Made by a program: the position numbers and the translations under genes. From Candidatus Helarchaeota archaeon (lineage in GTDB: Archaea > Asgardarchaeota > Lokiarchaeia > Helarchaeales > RDOG01), in NCBI GenBank assembly GCA_019058315.1, contig JAHPZH010000009.1, forward strand, positions 136,307 through 200,306: a stretch of 64,000 nt of DNA. The letters are read 5' to 3'. The notes beneath the pieces are model-generated. The model saw only the letters and a program-made list of their open reading frames with translations. It was not told the origin of the DNA and made no database searches. Each line of letters opens with the position of its first letter. Position 1 is the stretch's first letter. Positions 1-11,094 of this stretch are shown here, one piece after another.

Positions 1-49
1 TTATTATTTCTTCTTCATTTAAATTGGAAATACCAATTTCATTAATCAT
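1..49 (-). CDS. 5' end of a gene running off the window (MINEIGISNLNEEEII...), possibly DUF3194-like
   Basis: Manual translation from ATG at 49. It lies directly downstream of pfdB, where DUF3194 genes often sit in archaea. Only 16 codons are visible. Confidence 0.35.
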   Translation of the reverse strand, partial: MINEIGISNLNEEEII

Positions 50-96
50 TTGACATCTAATGTATTGGACTTTAAGAAAAAATAGTATATATTCAA

Positions 97-492
97 CTAC
101 ATTGGACCAAGATTTCCAAGATCTGATGTAGTTCCTGGTCTTTGTAAAGCACTTTGAATTTTAGTCCTAGCTTCTTCGAATTGTTTCCTTGTACGCTCTT
201 CTTGTCTTTGTATTGTCTTAAGTCTCATCTCTAACGTATCTTTTTTATCAATTAGTTCTTCTTTCACTTTATCTTTTTGGGATTTTACTAAAATTGAACC
301 AACGTTTTTATATACAACTGAATCTTCATCTAATTTTTCTAATTCTGATAAGGCTTTTTCCGCCTCTTTCATTCTAATTTCCATTTGACTTTTCTGAGCA
401 ACCAGCATTTCTAATCGTTGTTGGAGTTGCTGAAGTTGCATAATTTGATGTTGTAATTGTGGTGGTATTTCTTGCATCTCTATTTTCTCCAT
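97..492 (-). CDS. pfdB: Prefoldin beta subunit
   Basis: Coiled coils flanking VYKNVGSILVK hairpin; last gene of exosome superoperon. Confidence 0.93.
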   Translation of the reverse strand: MEKIEMQEIPPQLQHQIMQLQQLQQRLEMLVAQKSQMEIRMKEAEKALSELEKLDEDSVVYKNVGSILVKSQKDKVKEELIDKKDTLEMRLKTIQRQEERTRKQFEEARTKIQSALQRPGTTSDLGNLGPM

Positions 493-713
493 TTGGTATT
501 TATTTTTATTTCCTCATTTCTTTTATCATTCAAGAGGAATTTTGTAAAAATATAGACTTAATAATAAGATAATATTTTTCTTTATTAAATTTATTTTAAA
601 TTAGATTATTACTTTTTAAATTAAAGAGAATATCTTGACGCAATATTCACCATTTAAGAGAAATTTTTCCTATTTTATCAGAATATATAATTTTTTAAAA
701 TTTAAAAAAGGAG

Positions 714-965
714 TTATTTTGTTATTTCGACAATACCTTCAATAATTTTAATCCAATTAATGTATGAATTTAGGGTTGCACGAAACGCTGTTGTATCTTT
801 TGCATCAATTGAAATTTTTAATTTATTACCCATTAACATTAATTTTGTACTAGATCTATAACTAAACGACTCATCACTTTCAGGATTAAGGGAGTTAAAG
901 TATATTTGGGCAATTTTTTCATTAAAAAAATCGAAAATAATTTCACTACAAATTTTTTTTACCAA
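714..965 (-). CDS. pcc1: KEOPS complex subunit Pcc1
   Basis: SLNPE...RS...I.AKDTTAFRATLNSYINWI motif; conserved position between rpl37ae and pfdB. Confidence 0.88.
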   Translation of the reverse strand: MVKKICSEIIFDFFNEKIAQIYFNSLNPESDESFSYRSSTKLMLMGNKLKISIDAKDTTAFRATLNSYINWIKIIEGIVEITK

Positions 966-985
966 CTTTTCACCGTAGAGTCTTA

Positions 986-1264
986 TTAAACTTGAGATCT
1001 AACACGTTTAATTGTTCTAAAAGCCTTTTTTCCTTCATCAGTCATAGGTATCCAAGCTCCACCAGAAAAAACTATTTTACATTTTTTACAACGCCAGATT
1101 CCTATTGATATCCGCTTCACGGATTTTGTTCTACATTGAGGACATTTATGAGGTGCTTTCATCCTTTCTTCGACTTTTTTTACTCTTTTCCGAACAATAG
1201 CACCATATCTTGGACCAAATCTTCCTGTAATTCCGACTTTTTTCGTTCTTCCCAATTTTATCAC
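986..1264 (-). CDS. rpl37ae: 50S ribosomal protein L37Ae (eL43)
   Basis: RTKKVGITGRFGPRYG, CPQC...GIWRCKKC...GGAW. Confidence 0.96.
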   Translation of the reverse strand: MIKLGRTKKVGITGRFGPRYGAIVRKRVKKVEERMKAPHKCPQCRTKSVKRISIGIWRCKKCKIVFSGGAWIPMTDEGKKAFRTIKRVRSQV

Positions 1265-1300
1265 TTATTGAATTTGAAGGAAATTTTCACTTAATTAATT

Positions 1301-2113
1301 TTAGGGTAGGTATTGAAATAATTCTTTCGATTTTTCTAATGTAATCTCAACACATTTTATAATTTCGTCTTTAGTAAAAATACCTTCTCTACCTTTTTGT
1401 ATGCTACAAATATTTCCAGATTCATCTACTGTAATTGTAATGCGTGCATCCATTATGCGATCCTCTTGTTCATTTGGATCAACCAGCAATTTATCTCCTA
1501 TCTTTGCTATTGTAACTGAAACTGCTTTATTGGAAAATGGGAGGGATAACCAATCTGCTTTTTTGTATTGTTCACCTAAAACTTCCACTTTATTATCAAC
1601 AATCTCAGTCCTTGGCATTTTTGCAGAAAGTAAAGCTGCCACTCCTGCTAATGTTCCCGCATCAAACATATTTCCATCATAAGATAAAACATATAAATCA
1701 ATAAAAATGATAAAAACTTGTTCGCCAGGAATTAAGCATAATTTAGAATAATCTACTATTTCTGAATGACGAATTCCTCTGTCAACTACACGTGCAACCT
1801 CAACAGAATCTTCATTTGGTGGTCCTGGTTCGAATATAGGGGATGCAAGAGCTGTAAGCTCGGCATTAACAGTGATTACTCCCCTATCAGGAGTATCTGG
1901 AAATGGAGGTCCAAGTGAAATCTTTACACCTGCAATAATATCTGTATTTCCAATTTTAACACGTGCTGACCCCTCAGCTTTTAGTATTACATCTGTCTCT
2001 ACAGATATTTTTCGATAATCTAAAAAATTCCTTCCGTCTATTCTCTGATCCTTTTTTACTAGAGAATTTATATGAGATTTTTCAATTTCAGAAATAATTT
2101 TAAAAGATTCCAT
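1301..2113 (-). CDS. rrp42: Exosome complex component Rrp42
   Basis: RIDGR, AEGSARVKIGNT, PFPDTP, FEPGPP, ARVVDRGIR, DGNMFDA motifs. Confidence 0.96.
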   Translation of the reverse strand: MESFKIISEIEKSHINSLVKKDQRIDGRNFLDYRKISVETDVILKAEGSARVKIGNTDIIAGVKISLGPPFPDTPDRGVITVNAELTALASPIFEPGPPNEDSVEVARVVDRGIRHSEIVDYSKLCLIPGEQVFIIFIDLYVLSYDGNMFDAGTLAGVAALLSAKMPRTEIVDNKVEVLGEQYKKADWLSLPFSNKAVSVTIAKIGDKLLVDPNEQEDRIMDARITITVDESGNICSIQKGREGIFTKDEIIKCVEITLEKSKELFQYLP

Positions 2114-2927
2114 TATATATCCTCCTCCTTTGATATTTCAGTTTCAATTTCTTTATCAAGTTGACTATATTTTCCCTTTATCGTCTGAATTTGAATTTCA
2201 TTTAATTTTTCAATTCCTTTTTCAGCAATATCCAAGGCTTTACGCATTTCATCAAATGTTATTTGACCATCAAATTGCAAAAGTGTATATGATTTAGATC
2301 GTGGCATCATTGCAATTGGTAAATCTCCCAAACCTTCTTTATCTTCAACATCCGATAAATCTAGAACTAATGTGGGTGGATCAGGATTTGCAATTTTACC
2401 TACTGCTACACCACAAACAAGGTCGCGTAATGATATTCCAGCATCCGCTAGAGCTAAAGAAGCCGCAGTAACCGCAGCACAACGTGTACCACCATCTGCA
2501 CAAAGGACTTGGATAAAAACATCTATTATAGTTTTTGGATAATATTCAAGAAATATTGATGATTCCAAAGCTTGTCGTAAAATTAGCGAAAGTTCGACTT
2601 CCCTTCTAGATGGGGCAGGAGATTTTCTCTCATCTACTTTATTCCAAATTATTCACTCGGTATAATTTAAGCGAACGTAGCCATGCGATAAAGTACTCGC
2701 AAAACTGCCGCATCTTGACGGGCTAAATGACGAGGGTGAACTTCACGTGGTCCATAAACTGCGACCAAAATTTTATTCTTTCCCATATTTATTAAAGCAG
2801 AACCATCTGCTTTTGTTAATAATCCCATCTCCATTGAGACTGGTCTTAATTCATCATATTTCCTATTATCTGTTCTTATTCCATCCCTAATTAACCAATC
2901 AGCTGGGACTTGTTTAAAAAGTGCCAT
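2113..2927 (-). CDS. rrp41: Exosome catalytic subunit Rrp41, intron-containing: join(2927..2671, 2638..2113), about 260 aa after splicing
   Basis: The ORF-track pieces 2667..2936 and 2113..2568 are the two halves of an RNase PH fold (VYGPREVHPRH; DGGTRCA; GDLPIA). Removing 2639..2670 gives YRMATFA-VDERKSPAPSRREVELS in frame. GGTGA SD lies 6 nt before ATG 2927. Confidence 0.93.
2639..2670 (-). other. 32-nt bulge-helix-bulge intron in rrp41 mRNA
   Basis: Minus strand reads CUAC-GUUC-GC^U-UAAAUUAU-(9 nt)-AUAAUUUG-GAAU-AA^A-GUAG: outer helix, 4-bp central helix, two 3-nt bulges and an 8-bp intron stem. Confidence 0.9.
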
Positions 2928-2982
2928 AATTATCACCTTTTTATATATTTTTTTAATTCATATCTAAATTTCGATTTTCAAT

Positions 2983-3687
2983 TTACTTCTTCTTTTTTTC
3001 ATTCTCTATCAAAATTTTTACTCTATCTGTGAGGCCAGAAGTATGTGCCTCTCGTTCAATTTTCTTAATAATTTTAATCAATAATTGTTCATCTTCTAAG
3101 TTTTTTGTAGATATCCAAACCAAACCATTTTGTCCAACTACGATTTGGCTTTTTGTTGCTTCTTTAATTAAATTTATCATAGAACCCTTTCTTCCTATCA
3201 ATCTAGGTATTTTCGCAGAAGCAATTTTTATTACTTTTCCTCCGCGCAATTTACCATATCCTTTACCTCTTATTGATAGAACAGGATCTCTTGTTCTGTT
3301 AAATGCTATTATCTCCCCCACAATAATTTGTCCGATATCAAAATAATTTTTGATATTATCTTTTAAAGGATTAAATGCTCGGTCTATTACATTTGTAACA
3401 TGTAAGGAAGCTGTATATGGAGAATCAATATCAACTTTCCAGCTAACGATGGATGTATTTATAATTTTTCCTATAACAACATCACCGACCTTAGGTACAT
3501 AAGGTCCACTGAAGGGAACTACATATACATTATTATTTCCTCTAATCTCTGAAAACCCAATAATAGATGCATAAAGTTTATCCTCTTCCTTGTATGTTCC
3601 AAATCCTGCTCTATACTTAGAACCTTCTACAATTAATTCGCCTGGCACTACAATACGATGCCGTTCAAAACTATCTCCATTTGACAA
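2983..3687 (-). CDS. rrp4: Exosome RNA-binding cap protein Rrp4
   Basis: IVVPGE, YVPKVGDVVIGKI (S1), KIPRLIGRKGSMI (KH), REAHTSGLTDRV. Confidence 0.96.
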   Translation of the reverse strand: MSNGDSFERHRIVVPGELIVEGSKYRAGFGTYKEEDKLYASIIGFSEIRGNNNVYVVPFSGPYVPKVGDVVIGKIINTSIVSWKVDIDSPYTASLHVTNVIDRAFNPLKDNIKNYFDIGQIIVGEIIAFNRTRDPVLSIRGKGYGKLRGGKVIKIASAKIPRLIGRKGSMINLIKEATKSQIVVGQNGLVWISTKNLEDEQLLIKIIKKIEREAHTSGLTDRVKILIENEKKKK

Positions 3688-3715
3688 AAAAAGTCCTCCT
3701 TTATTTTTAAAACTG

Positions 3716-4450
3716 TTAAAAGAGTGTTTCCTTTAATTTCTTAATATCATGTTTACCTTTTGTTAAATTTTTAAGTTGGTCATTTAATTCAGCATGGACA
3801 CCAACAGGAAGGTCAATTAATGCTATCCATGATCCATCAGATTGCCATTCATCTTTAGAAATTGTACCATACTTTGAAACAATGCCATAAGCTTTTCCTG
3901 TATATTGAGCTGGAATTTTTACAGCAAGAGTAATTCGTTCCATTTTAATAGGGATAATTTCTGCTAATTTCTTCACAATTTTCTTTGCTTGCTCAACAAT
4001 TTCCTCATTGGAATCTATAGATATTTTTGCATCTTCCATTGCACGTTCAATGCGAGCTGGTGGATGTGGAAGCCCAGTTTTGGGATTTACACAATTACGA
4101 TTGATAAAATAAATAATTTTTTTTCTAATTTTCTCCGTAAATTCTTTTCTCATTTCAGCTGTAATGTGCAGTTCTCCATTTTTTAAAATCTCTTCTGAAA
4201 TTTCAAAAATGTCATCAGTTTCAAATATTTTCTGAAATAACTCCGAATCTGTCAATTTTTCACCGCGTAAAGCGTCTGAAAAAATGTAATATCCAATTAA
4301 AATATCACGTATTTCAATATCCTTTCCTTCTTTGAATTGCCAAGCTAGCTTCGGATCTACTAAGATCTCAAAATGATGTCCCATACTATCATAACGAACT
4401 ATGGTTGCTTTTCCAAGATCTAGTCTTTTCTGTCCCCTTATAGAAACCAT
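3716..4450 (-). CDS. sdo1: Ribosome maturation protein SBDS/Sdo1
   Basis: HFEILVDP, NPKTGLPHPPARIERAM, EWQSDGSW. Confidence 0.95.
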   Translation of the reverse strand: MVSIRGQKRLDLGKATIVRYDSMGHHFEILVDPKLAWQFKEGKDIEIRDILIGYYIFSDALRGEKLTDSELFQKIFETDDIFEISEEILKNGELHITAEMRKEFTEKIRKKIIYFINRNCVNPKTGLPHPPARIERAMEDAKISIDSNEEIVEQAKKIVKKLAEIIPIKMERITLAVKIPAQYTGKAYGIVSKYGTISKDEWQSDGSWIALIDLPVGVHAELNDQLKNLTKGKHDIKKLKETLF

Positions 4451-4467
4451 ATTTATCTGATCTACTT

Positions 4468-5181
4468 CTAAATCCTTTGTATATATTTATCCAATTCCTC
4501 GGTAGCTAATCTTTCGAATTCCTTAGTTTCAGTACGTGCTATTGCCACTTCTACCTTAGTTGAATCAAGTTCAGTTTCGATTACTTGTTTTAATGCTTTA
4601 AGAGCTAACTCAATTGCTTGATCTAATGTCATTTCAGGCTTATATTCTTTTTCGAGTTCTTCTTGTACTGTCTGAGCACCAGAGCCAATAGCATTGGCAC
4701 GATAGCCCCAAAATGCCCCTGATGGATCAGTTAAAAATAATTGAGGCCCTTTTTCATCAATTCCAGCAATTAATAGACTTACACCGAAAGGGCGAACTCC
4801 TGCATGTTGCGTATATAATTGTTTTAGATCACATATCTTTTTTGTTAGCATTTGAATATCAATTGACTCATCATAAGTGAGTTTATTTATTTGACATTGA
4901 ATTCTAGCATGATCTACTAGAACTCTTGCATCAGCTGTCAAACCAGCTATAGCACAGCCAACATGATTATCAATTTTAAAAATCTTTTCTACACTTTCAG
5001 GTTCCTGAAGTGCAAGAATTCTTTTTTCTACTGTACAAACAACACCTTCAGAACATAAAATGCCAATTGCAGTAGTACCCTTTCTAACTGCTTCCATGGC
5101 ATATTCTACTTGAAAGAGTCTTCCATCTGGACTAAAGATCGTGATTGCACGGTCATAGCCCATACCTGGTGGCGCGAACAT
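4468..5181 (-). CDS. psmA: Proteasome alpha subunit (probable start MFAPPGMGYDR)
   Basis: YDRAITIFSPDGRLFQVEYA, GLTADAR, RPFGVSLL; GTAGGTG SD-like sequence before the internal ATG. Confidence 0.97.
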   Translation of the reverse strand: MFAPPGMGYDRAITIFSPDGRLFQVEYAMEAVRKGTTAIGILCSEGVVCTVEKRILALQEPESVEKIFKIDNHVGCAIAGLTADARVLVDHARIQCQINKLTYDESIDIQMLTKKICDLKQLYTQHAGVRPFGVSLLIAGIDEKGPQLFLTDPSGAFWGYRANAIGSGAQTVQEELEKEYKPEMTLDQAIELALKALKQVIETELDSTKVEVAIARTETKEFERLATEELDKYIQRI

Positions 5182-5546
5182 AATGCATAAACACCTACCT
5201 TTTCTTAAATTAACCAATTCTTTATTTCAAAGTTAAATATATTTTCATAAGAAATTATAGTTTATTTTTTTTACTCTTTTGTATAAATTTATTTCTTTTA
5301 TTTACACAAGATTTTCTTATACAAAAATGTTTTTTTCCTTTATTTATATTCATAATTGTTATTTTAAAAAAAAATAAATTTTTTTTCCTTAAATTTTTTG
5401 GTGAATTTATTAAAAAAGAATTAAAATTTCTTTAATTAAATATAACCGAACTAAATTTCAACATAGAACCGTTTAAAAAACACATATACTTAAAATTCTA
5501 ACGATTTTTTAAATAAATTTTGATTTAAAACCTTCTATCATAGATT

Positions 5547-6124: not shown

Positions 6125-6571
6125 GTGAAAATGTCTTCTGAAATCCACGTAATTACAATTAGAGATTCTGATTTAGACAAATTAGTAGAATTTACAAAAA
6201 AAACTTACCCATACGAGTCATGTGCATTATTTATAGGGAATATAAATGGTCATAAAGCAACAGTAGACGAAATTTTATTTGCTGAAAATATTGATTACTC
6301 TCATGTTAGCTTTTCAATTAACCCTGAATTTCTATATCAAGTTTATATGAAAGCAGAAAAAGAAAATAAGGTGATTACAGGTATATTTCATTCCCATCCG
6401 ACTGTCTCTGCTCCTTCGTCAGTTGATTTGAAATATATGGAATATAATCCAGTAGCATGGATTATTTTAGGTGTTTTGGATGAAACTAATATAAAAAAGG
6501 AAGATATGCGAGCTTATCAATACTGGGAAAATTCAATAAAAGAAGTAAAAATAGAAATTATGAACATTTGA
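6125..6571 (+). CDS. JAMM/MPN+ (Mov34) metalloprotease
   Basis: PYESCALFIG...IFHSHP....PSSVD JAMM motif. Confidence 0.88.
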   Translation: MKMSSEIHVITIRDSDLDKLVEFTKKTYPYESCALFIGNINGHKATVDEILFAENIDYSHVSFSINPEFLYQVYMKAEKENKVITGIFHSHPTVSAPSSVDLKYMEYNPVAWIILGVLDETNIKKEDMRAYQYWENSIKEVKIEIMNI

Positions 6572-6696
6572 ATTAGGTATATAATTTATTGAAATATTAG
6601 TGCTTAATTTACATTTTTGCTTTAAAACAAAAATATATTAACAATAAATCAACATTAAAGAATAGTATTTTAAAAAGTATAAGAAAGTGAAATTGA

Positions 6697-10000: not shown

Positions 10001-11094
10001 ATGGTAAAGACTGGAATAATATATCATGAAGATTATTTAAAACATGATACTGGAGATCATGTTGAAAATAAAAAAAGATTGATTGCCACTTTGGATTTAT
10101 TTAATGAATACAAAATTTTTGAGCATCCTAATATCATTAAGATTTCCCCAAATCCAGCATCTATTAAGGAAATTCAAAGAGTTCATAAAGCATTTTATAT
10201 AGAAAAAGTCCGGGAAAAATGTTTAAGTGGTGGGGGCTGGCTTGATGCTGATACAATTGTCTCTCCAGATAGCTACAATGTTGCATTATTAGCTGCTGGA
10301 GGAGCAATACAAGCAGGTGAGATGGCTGTAAAAGGTAAAATTGACAATGCTTTTTGTTTAATACGTCCTCCAGGACATCATGCCGGACCAGGGGTTGCTA
10401 GAGGATTTTGTGTATTTAATAATATTGCCATTGTTGCAAAATCTTTAATTGCGAGGTTTGAAGAGGTCAATAAAGTCTTAATATTTGACCACGATGCACA
10501 TTAAAAAAGAAATTTTCTTTTTTAAGCATATACGCAGGTAATGGAACCTCGCAAATTCTATATAACGATCCAAATGTGCTATTATTTGATTTTCACCAAC
10601 ATCCGCGAACACTCTATCCTGGAACAGGTTATATAGATGAAATAGGTGAGGAAGAAGGAAAGGGATATAATATAAATTTACCTATGGTTCCCCGTGCTGG
10701 TGATGCTCAATATCTAGAAGTTATTGATGAATTATTCATTCCAATTATTAATCAATTTAAACCTGATATTGTTCTAGTTTCAGCAGGATTTGATACTCAT
10801 TTTTCTGATCCCATTACACAACTCAATATAACAATTCAAGGATATGGAGAAATCGTTAAAAAAATAAAAAAAGAGGCAAAAAAAGTCTGTGCTGGGAAAA
10901 TTATAATTATGCTTGAGGGTGGATATGATTTAAAAGCACTATCTCAGGGAATTCTAACTGAAATATCTGTACTTGGAGATTTAGGTATTGAATTTATAGA
11001 AAATCCTCCTAAAATTGAAGAAGCTATAGTAGATTACAATAGAAAAATGATAGATAAATTAAAAGAAGTTTTAGGTGCTTATTGGAAATTTTAA
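10001..11094 (+). CDS. Histone deacetylase-family (class II-like/AcuC) Zn-dependent deacetylase, intron-containing: join(10001..10499, 10532..11094), about 353 aa
   Basis: HVEN..RL, RPPGHHA, GFCVFNN, DHDAH|AGNGT, HQHPRTLYPGTG, SAGFDTH, LEGGY. ORF-track pieces 9929..10504 and 10576..11094 join in frame when 10500..10531 is removed. Confidence 0.92.
10500..10531 (+). other. 32-nt bulge-helix-bulge intron in deacetylase mRNA
   Basis: CG-AUGC-AC^A-UUAAAAAAGAA-auu-UUCUUUUUUAA-GCAU-AU^A-CG: perfect 4-bp central helix, two 3-nt bulges, 10-11-bp intron stem, short outer helix. Confidence 0.9.

What the first reader, a model, noticed from the sequence alone, without database searches (positions are those of the whole stretch)
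2634..2680. 32-nt BHB intron interrupts the exosome catalytic subunit gene rrp41
The minus strand folds as outer helix CUAC/GUAG, central helix GUUC/GAAU, bulges GCU and AAA, and intron stem UAAAUUAU/AUAAUUUG. Splicing GC|A gives ...YRMATFA-VDERKSPAPSRRE..., the conserved RNase PH segment with no residue gained or lost. Unspliced mRNA stops after about 86 aa, before the RNA-binding arginines and the DGGTR phosphate site. rrp41 sits in an otherwise intact superoperon, so a real knockout is unlikely. Inference: RNA-decay capacity may be tied to splicing activity. Cleavage without ligation would also cut the polycistronic mRNA upstream of rrp42.
Basis: partly seen in the sequence, partly recalled or inferred. 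Interest (0 to 1): 0.92.

Follow-up and report, generated by a model that had tools for sequence, protein, structure and literature searches.

The report
tRNA-type intron splits exosome gene rrp41
A 32-base intron of the kind normally cut out of archaeal tRNAs interrupts the gene for the catalytic exosome subunit Rrp41 in an Asgard-like archaeon and its near relatives. Its folded shape has been kept through evolution, so this housekeeping mRNA most likely has to be spliced before it can be translated.

Summary
On the minus strand rrp41 is split into exon 1 (2927-2671) and exon 2 (2638-2113) by a 32-nt insert (2670-2639). The insert lies in a canonical hBHBh' motif (2680-2634). Cutting after the second base of each 3-nt bulge joins GC|A and restores an uninterrupted 260-aa RNase PH protein.

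This is not chance, a pseudogene or an assembly error:
- Seven further metagenome loci carry an insert at the same codon. Lengths are 28-32 nt, never a multiple of 3, and the sequences have diverged.
- The fold is kept: 96% of pair cells are paired, and 7 of 8 inner-stem pairs show compensatory changes.
- Both exons are under strong purifying selection (dN/dS 0.02-0.28, dS near saturation).
- All 29 relatives' rrp41 loci examined are uninterrupted, so the intron belongs to one clade.
- The genome encodes two EndA paralogues and RtcB.
- At least three other genes (EF-2, an HDAC-family deacetylase, an HTH-CBS regulator) and probably an RNase Z-like gene carry the same kind of insert.

No RNA data exist, so splicing itself is inferred. 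Confirmed mRNA introns of this type are known only for crenarchaeal cbf5. Other first-stage readers of this scan flagged this stretch and similar inserts elsewhere in this genome.

The parts
2671..2927 (-). rrp41 exon 1 (ATG at 2927-2925; ends with GC, the first two bases of the Ala86 codon)
   Evidence: Pfam RNase_PH profile positions 1-59.
2639..2670 (-). 32-nt BHB intron. An in-frame UAA starts one base into it.
   Evidence: An insert at the same codon occurs in 7 related loci with lengths 28-32 nt.
2634..2680 (-). hBHBh' motif: outer helix CUAC/GUAG, central helix GUUC/GAAU, bulges GC|U and AA|A, inner stem UAAAUUAU/AUAAUUUG, loop ACCGAGUGA
   Evidence: Covariation.
2113..2638 (-). rrp41 exon 2 (begins with A, the third base of the Ala86 codon; stop TAA at 2115-2113 overlaps the rrp42 ATG)
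   Evidence: Pfam RNase_PH positions 64-129 plus RNase_PH_C.
2983..3687 (-). rrp4, the upstream neighbour in the exosome superoperon
   Evidence: Pfam ECR1_N_2, RRP4_S1, KH_6.
1301..2113 (-). rrp42, the downstream neighbour; its start overlaps the rrp41 stop
   Evidence: Pfam RNase_PH plus RNase_PH_C.

Best explanation
The 32 nt at 2670-2639 (minus strand) are a bulge-helix-bulge (tRNA-type) intron in the rrp41 pre-mRNA.

Proposed mechanism, all steps inferred:
1. In the transcript of the exosome superoperon, exon bases CUAC GUUC GC and A GUAG pair with each other and with the intron's GAAU.
2. This forms an outer helix, a 4-bp central helix and two 3-nt bulges on opposite strands, closed by an 8-bp intron hairpin.
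3. The archaeal splicing endonuclease EndA cuts after the second base of each bulge. Here EndA has a catalytic alpha subunit plus a second paralogue, which suggests the heterotetrameric, broad-specificity type.
4. RtcB joins the exons, and probably circularises the intron.
5. The spliced mRNA encodes a normal 260-aa Rrp41. Unspliced mRNA gives only an 86-aa fragment without the phosphate and RNA-binding sites.

Shown here: the sequence anatomy, exact frame restoration, conservation and covariation of the structure in a clade, selection on both exons, and presence of the enzymes. Inferred: cleavage, ligation and translation of the spliced product. The intron arose, or was fixed, in the ancestor of one genus- or family-level Asgard (Lokiarchaeia-like) clade. 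It has been kept through near-saturating synonymous divergence.
For: 1. Exact anatomy and frame restoration.
2. Seven other loci from at least five independent metagenome samples carry an insert at the same codon, in the same superoperon. Lengths are 28, 28, 29, 29, 31, 32 and 32 nt, and the spliced ORFs are intact.
3. Structure counts on alignment A1: 96.4% of pair cells paired against 31-43% when partners are slid. 7 of 8 inner-stem pairs show changes on both sides. The central helix varies only by compatible changes (G-U, A-U, G-C; C-G, U-G). 0 of 500 shuffles reach the covariation score. RNAalifold finds the outer and inner helices on its own.
4. dN/dS is 0.02-0.28 in both exons with dS 0.4 to above 2.
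5. The exon bases in the helices (GCU, GUA) are invariant in all carriers. The same synonymous sites vary freely in 29 intron-less relatives.
6. In this genome the exon-2 frame has no ATG, GTG or TTG between the in-frame TGA inside the intron and a TTG 23 codons past the junction. The conserved VDERKSPAPSRRE segment therefore cannot be translated on its own.
7. Independent assemblies span the insert without a gap, including a contig about 85% identical, and no DNA contig lacks it.
8. The genome encodes an EndA alpha-like protein (best solved match A. pernix 3p1z_B, E 4e-45), a second EndA paralogue and RtcB.
9. The same architecture interrupts EF-2 at DTPGH|VD (GTP_EFTU 2-79 | 82-160), an HDAC-family gene (Hist_deacetyl 1-151 | 154-295) and an HTH-CBS gene.
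10. Cleavage between the second and third bulge residues is the rule described for cbf5 pre-mRNA introns (PMC2738675).
Against: There is no RNA-level evidence: no spliced junction, circular intron or peptide has been seen.

In this genome the BHB is 3.7 kcal/mol above the minimum-free-energy fold of the isolated 55-61-nt RNA. In the relatives it lies 1.3-3.8 kcal/mol above.

The alpha/beta assignment of the two EndA paralogues rests on sequence only. The alpha-like gene lies on a small 31-kb contig of a genome bin with 6.6% estimated contamination.

Only 7 distinct sequences support the covariation, and they are related to one another.
Confidence: 0.88

Rival explanations
1. Split gene: the two ORFs are translated separately, and an 86-aa N-terminal piece and a C-terminal piece assemble non-covalently into a working Rrp41.
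For: Gene callers annotate two ORFs in every carrier. In some relatives a TTG inside the insert is in frame with exon 2 (L031). Both pieces are under purifying selection.
Against: In this genome no start codon precedes the conserved VDERKSPAPSRRE segment. Start codons in the insert are not conserved among carriers. A split gene does not explain why the insert keeps a BHB fold by compensatory changes, or why exon synonymous sites in the helices are frozen. The cut falls inside the RNase PH domain core. EF-2 is cut in the same way inside its G3 motif.
Confidence: 0.05
2. Translational recoding: ribosomes bypass or hop over the 32 nt, so the insert is never removed from the mRNA.
For: The insert is short, forms a hairpin, and has a stop codon right after the take-off site. 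This superficially resembles T4 gene 60 bypassing (from general knowledge).
Against: No matched take-off and landing codons flank the insert (GCU...AAA/GUA). The conserved features are those of the EndA substrate: a 4-bp helix between two 3-nt bulges. The frame is restored exactly at the canonical cleavage positions in carriers of five different insert lengths.
Confidence: 0.02
3. Inactivated gene or artefact: rrp41 is a pseudogene, or the 32 nt are an assembly or sequencing error.
For: The ORF is broken as annotated. The genome is a metagenome-type assembly (12 contigs, 6.6% contamination).
Against: Contigs from an independent study and seven other loci carry the insert. dN/dS is 0.02-0.28 in both exons across near-saturated dS. 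All spliced ORFs are intact. No second rrp41 exists in the genome; besides rrp41 itself the search found one weak RNase PH match on another contig (C3, E 1e-5), not a second rrp41.
Confidence: 0.01
4. Regulated splicing: the intron is spliced, and it also serves as a switch that ties exosome output, or the rrp41/rrp42 ratio, to EndA/RtcB activity.
For: The intron has been kept over long divergence. It lies in a polycistronic context with an overlapping stop and start. Unconventional splicing of XBP1/HAC1 mRNA, ligated by RtcB in animals, is a regulatory precedent (general knowledge; PMC8718801 mentions RtcB and XBP-1).
Against: No data bear on regulation. Similar introns sit in functionally unrelated genes. 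Persistence can be explained simply: a precise loss is rare, and an imprecise one is lethal.
Confidence: 0.1

Closest known systems
cbf5 pre-mRNA BHB introns of Crenarchaeota (Watanabe 2002; Yoshinari 2006; Yokobori 2009, PMC2738675)
   Same: A short intron (from 16 nt in cbf5) in a protein-coding gene, flanked by a BHB motif. Cleavage falls between the second and third bulge residues. The host has a hetero-oligomeric splicing endonuclease. Distribution is clade-limited, implying gain or loss.
   Different: The gene is different (rrp41, not cbf5; cbf5 is uninterrupted here). The phylum is different (Asgard/Lokiarchaeia-like, not Crenarchaeota). The motif here is the strict canonical hBHBh', whereas most cbf5 introns have relaxed motifs (PMC2738675). 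Several other genes of the same genome are interrupted as well. Splicing of cbf5 was confirmed by cDNA; here it has not been.
Archaeal tRNA BHB introns, including the intron-rich tRNA genes of Asgard archaea (bioRxiv 10.64898/2026.10.13.758758; PMC5829648)
   Same: Same motif, same size class and same predicted enzymes (EndA, with two paralogues in most Asgard genomes, and RtcB).
   Different: The substrate is an mRNA inside a coding domain, so the exon halves of the motif must also encode protein. That preprint does not mention mRNA at all, and 'protein-coding' appears there only for genes neighbouring tRNA loci.
IRE1/RtcB unconventional splicing of XBP1/HAC1 mRNA in eukaryotes
   Same: Spliceosome-independent removal of a short, frame-changing mRNA intron by a protein endonuclease, followed by ligation. 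RtcB does the ligation in animals.
   Different: The endonuclease (IRE1) and its recognition motif (twin stem-loops) are different, and that system is a proven regulatory switch. This is an analogy only.

Membership tests
[quoted passage not shown] | [quoted passage not shown] | tested here: met
   CUAC/GUAG, GUUC/GAAU, bulges GCU and AAA, 8-bp inner stem. The same layout occurs in 7 related loci.
[quoted passage not shown] | Cleavage between the second and third bulge residues yields exons that join into the functional sequence | tested here: met
   (792-nt ORF). (RNase_PH 1-59 | 64-129). (all 7 relatives give intact spliced ORFs with the same rule).
[quoted passage not shown] | The structure, rather than the sequence, is conserved among homologues | tested here: met
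   96.4% paired, 7 pairs with compensatory changes, slid controls 31-43%. RNAalifold finds the helices independently.
[quoted passage not shown] | The host encodes a splicing endonuclease (a broad-specificity type for non-tRNA contexts) and an RtcB-type ligase | tested here: met
   PF01974 matches twice (103 and 78 bits). PF01139 (RtcB) scores 582 bits. The alpha-like paralogue best matches the A. pernix heterotetramer chain 3p1z_B. The role of the second paralogue as beta subunit is inferred.
[quoted passage not shown] | A spliced junction, or the excised or circular intron, is present in RNA | not testable with these tools
   No RNA run is listed for this DNA.
[quoted passage not shown] | Cleavage of the motif by the cognate EndA in vitro | not testable with these tools
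   This needs a bench experiment.
Rrp41 (archaeal exosome RNase PH catalytic subunit) | RNase_PH plus RNase_PH_C domains, encoded between rrp4 and rrp42 in the exosome/proteasome superoperon | tested here: met
   for the domains. for the same gene order in relatives: proteasome alpha, SBDS, rrp4, rrp41, rrp42, L37ae, Pcc1, prefoldin. Sources name homologues Rrp41.

The most novel reading that the evidence does not exclude
This Asgard lineage routinely relies on the tRNA-splicing machinery (EndA plus RtcB) to mature several housekeeping mRNAs: rrp41, EF-2, an HDAC-family deacetylase, an HTH-CBS regulator and probably an RNase Z-like gene. That would be a small, protein-only mRNA-splicing system in close prokaryotic relatives of eukaryotes. 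Its introns are gained at sites where the coding sequence can supply half of a BHB, and are then frozen there by selection.
Probability: 0.75. Interest if true: 0.85.

Novelty: new member of a known kind. Interest (0 to 1): 0.78.

Why it matters

Here the same mechanism is predicted, with strong comparative support, for the catalytic exosome subunit of an Asgard-like archaeon. At least three other genes of the same genome are affected, including EF-2.

Three consequences follow:
1. Gene callers systematically mis-annotate these genes as fragments or pseudogenes. All carriers in the databases are called as two ORFs.
2. The substrate range of the archaeal splicing endonuclease in vivo would include essential mRNAs in a mesophilic Asgard lineage.
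3. It offers a tractable case for how introns enter and persist in coding sequence without a spliceosome. That question bears on intron origins near the archaeal-eukaryotic boundary.

Tried and rejected
1. RNA evidence: the look-up of sequencing runs listed no RNA holder, so expression and splicing could not be examined. Only DNA contigs were laid.

2. Motif statistics: a genome-wide scan for loose hBHBh' motifs with ORF restoration has a high background. It gave 941 hits against about 858 in frame-shifted controls. Gene junctions account for much of this, and the shifted controls also pick up real inserts in other registers.

3. Paralogue alignments across the junction did not separate signal from background either: 45 against 28-44.

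4. A stricter scan (inner stem at least 6 bp) gave 88 against 73 for a mirror-topology decoy. Only roughly 5-15 strict cases can be claimed, and I give no firm genome-wide count.

5. Candidates C3:778100-778128 and C11:748086-748117 were not supported by the Pfam halves.

6. The rrp41 homologues of 166-167 aa at 57-59% identity looked like further split genes. The two whose contigs I read (P0036, P0097) are truncations at contig ends with a continuous coding sequence.

7. Rfam: no family matches in the region or in the window.

8. The five mRNA introns are not copies of one another or of a repeat family.

9. Relatives in the species-representative genome set: every one of the 29 rrp41 loci examined is uninterrupted, so covariation had to come from metagenome contigs.

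Full report
**What is there.** The window is G000:C10:136307-200306 of a 5.79-Mb, 31% G+C genome in 12 contigs. Sources name its closest rrp41 homologues as Helarchaeota, Lokiarchaeota or Promethearchaeota, that is, Asgard archaea.

The minus strand of 1-5300 carries the archaeal exosome/proteasome superoperon. I confirmed rrp4 (2983-3687), rrp41 and rrp42 (1301-2113) by Pfam. The remaining genes match the order annotated in related contigs: proteasome alpha, SBDS, L37ae, Pcc1, prefoldin.

rrp41 is broken. An 89-aa ORF ends at GCT TAA (2667-2936). The rest of the protein continues in another frame down to 2113. Between them lie 32 nt (2670-2639).

Joining GC|A gives a 792-nt ORF. RNase_PH profile positions 1-59 lie in exon 1 and 64-129 in exon 2, followed by RNase_PH_C. 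No residue is gained or lost.

There is one correction. The BHB is not the minimum-free-energy fold of the isolated RNA. It scores -5.5 against -9.2 kcal/mol here, and lies 1.3-3.8 kcal/mol above the MFE in relatives. Nearest-neighbour energy rules penalise the two bulges, so a gap of this size is not surprising (my inference).

**Is it more than chance?** A loose BHB is common in this AT-rich genome, about 10 per kb per strand, so the motif alone proves little. A motif of this quality occurs 146 times in 11.6 million strand positions. Here it sits in the single register that restores the frame.

**The decisive evidence is comparative.**
- The closest database homologues of exon 2 (76-89% identity) are all short fragments. 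Homologues at 70% identity or less are full length.
- Fetching their DNA gave seven loci from JGI and ENA metagenomes. In every one, rrp41 is interrupted at the same codon.
- The inserts are 28, 28, 29, 29, 31, 32 and 32 nt, never a multiple of three. They differ widely in sequence.
- All of them fold into the same hBHBh', and all give an intact Rrp41 by the same cleavage rule.
- On the alignment (A1), 96.4% of pair cells are standard pairs, against 31-43% when the 3' partners are slid.
- Seven of the eight inner-stem pairs show changes on both sides. The central helix changes only compatibly (G-U, A-U, G-C at one pair; C-G, U-G at another). No shuffle of 500 reaches the covariation score.
- RNAalifold recovers the outer and inner helices without being told.
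- Both exons evolve under strong purifying selection, with dN/dS 0.02-0.28 at dS 0.4 to above 2.
- The exon bases that build the helices (GCU...GUA) are invariant in all carriers. The same synonymous sites vary freely in 29 intron-less relatives.

**Independent DNA support.** Logan contigs from another study span the insert without a gap, including one about 85% identical. No DNA contig lacks the insert. This excludes an assembly artefact and a pseudogene.

**Rivals.**
- A split gene translated as two polypeptides is unlikely. In this genome no start codon precedes the conserved VDERKSPAPSRRE segment of exon 2. Start codons in the insert are not conserved. Nothing in that model explains selection for a BHB.
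- Ribosomal bypassing lacks matched take-off and landing codons. It also does not predict the EndA substrate geometry.

**Machinery and context.** The genome encodes an EndA catalytic-type protein whose best solved match is the alpha chain of the Aeropyrum pernix heterotetramer. It also encodes a second, more divergent EndA paralogue without the catalytic His context, and RtcB. This fits the (alpha-beta)2, L1-loop EndA reported for Asgard archaea (PMC5829648) and the two paralogues seen in 44 of 60 Asgard genomes (bioRxiv 10.64898/2026.10.13.758758).

Prompted partly by notes of other first-stage readers and partly by my own scan, I checked other genes:
- EF-2 is cut by a 31-nt BHB insert at DTPGH|VD (GTP_EFTU 2-79 | 82-160).
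- An HDAC-family gene in this window is cut by a 32-nt insert at 10500-10531 (Hist_deacetyl 1-151 | 154-295).
- An HTH-CBS gene is cut by a 33-nt insert inside its HTH.
- An RNase Z-like gene is probably cut by a 29-nt insert at LFDCGE|GTQ (only exon 2 matches Pfam).

These introns are unrelated in sequence and each is single-copy. cbf5, the classical case, is uninterrupted here. An organism cannot do without EF-2, so this kind of insert must be removed efficiently.

**Distribution.** All 29 relatives' rrp41 loci examined, from the same family, order and class, are uninterrupted. So are the next-best database hits. Apparent short homologues in other lineages are truncations at contig ends. The simplest history is one gain in the ancestor of a narrow clade, followed by long retention.

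**What is not shown.** No RNA data exist for this organism. Cleavage, ligation and translation of the spliced mRNA are therefore inferred. Similar introns in unrelated genes make it less necessary.

**Comparison with what is known.** In the searchable literature, confirmed pre-mRNA BHB introns concern only crenarchaeal cbf5 (PMC2738675). Putative introns in other genes were predicted but not confirmed. The recent Asgard intron census covers tRNA genes only.

I therefore file this as a new member of a known kind: same mechanism, new gene, new phylum. It has unusually clean covariation support and sister cases in the same genome. I cannot exclude a report in journals outside the library.

Noticed in passing
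window 10500-10531 (+): A second mRNA BHB intron (32 nt) interrupts an HDAC-family deacetylase at DHDAH|AGNG. The central helix is AUGC/GCAU, the inner hairpin has 10 bp and the outer helix only 2 bp. Pfam Hist_deacetyl positions 1-151 and 154-295 abut across it.
   Followed up: yes
G000 C6:81229-81259 (-) = L041: EF-2 is interrupted by a 31-nt strict BHB insert inside the G3 motif (DTPGH|VD). GTP_EFTU positions 2-79 and 82-160 abut.
   Followed up: yes
G000 C5:499169-499201 (+) = L042; C6:64108-64136 (+) = L047: An HTH-CBS regulator is cut by a 33-nt insert inside HTH_3. An RNase Z-like metallo-beta-lactamase gene is cut by a 29-nt insert at LFDCGE|GTQ. Both inserts have strict BHB motifs. 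For the RNase Z-like gene only the downstream half could be matched to Pfam.
   Followed up: partly
window 1-64000: ARAGORN and Rfam (gathering threshold) find no tRNA in the 64-kb window, although other first-stage notes report three multi-intron tRNA genes here. If those genes are real, standard tools miss them.
   Followed up: no
G000 C3:627669-631783: A dense cluster of tRNA genes, most with ARAGORN intron calls of 19-138 nt. Genome-wide, 18 of 42 tRNA calls carry an intron call, some of them doubtful.
   Followed up: no
G000 C3:778100-778128 (+) = L043: A carboxylesterase-family ORF starts at Pfam profile position 114, just downstream of a strong BHB-like motif. The upstream ORF has no esterase match. 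The gene is either truncated or interrupted in some other way.
   Followed up: partly
window 6559-6624 and 10501-10525: Contigs from other sediment runs show joints linking the AT-rich hairpin of the HDAC intron to the region around 6560-6620. These are probably cross-matches between low-complexity hairpins rather than rearrangements.
   Followed up: no
G000 C10:97059-97400 (+) = L048 (outside the window): cbf5 (TruB_N), the classical intron-bearing archaeal gene, lies in a 364-aa open frame here with no interruption.
   Followed up: yes
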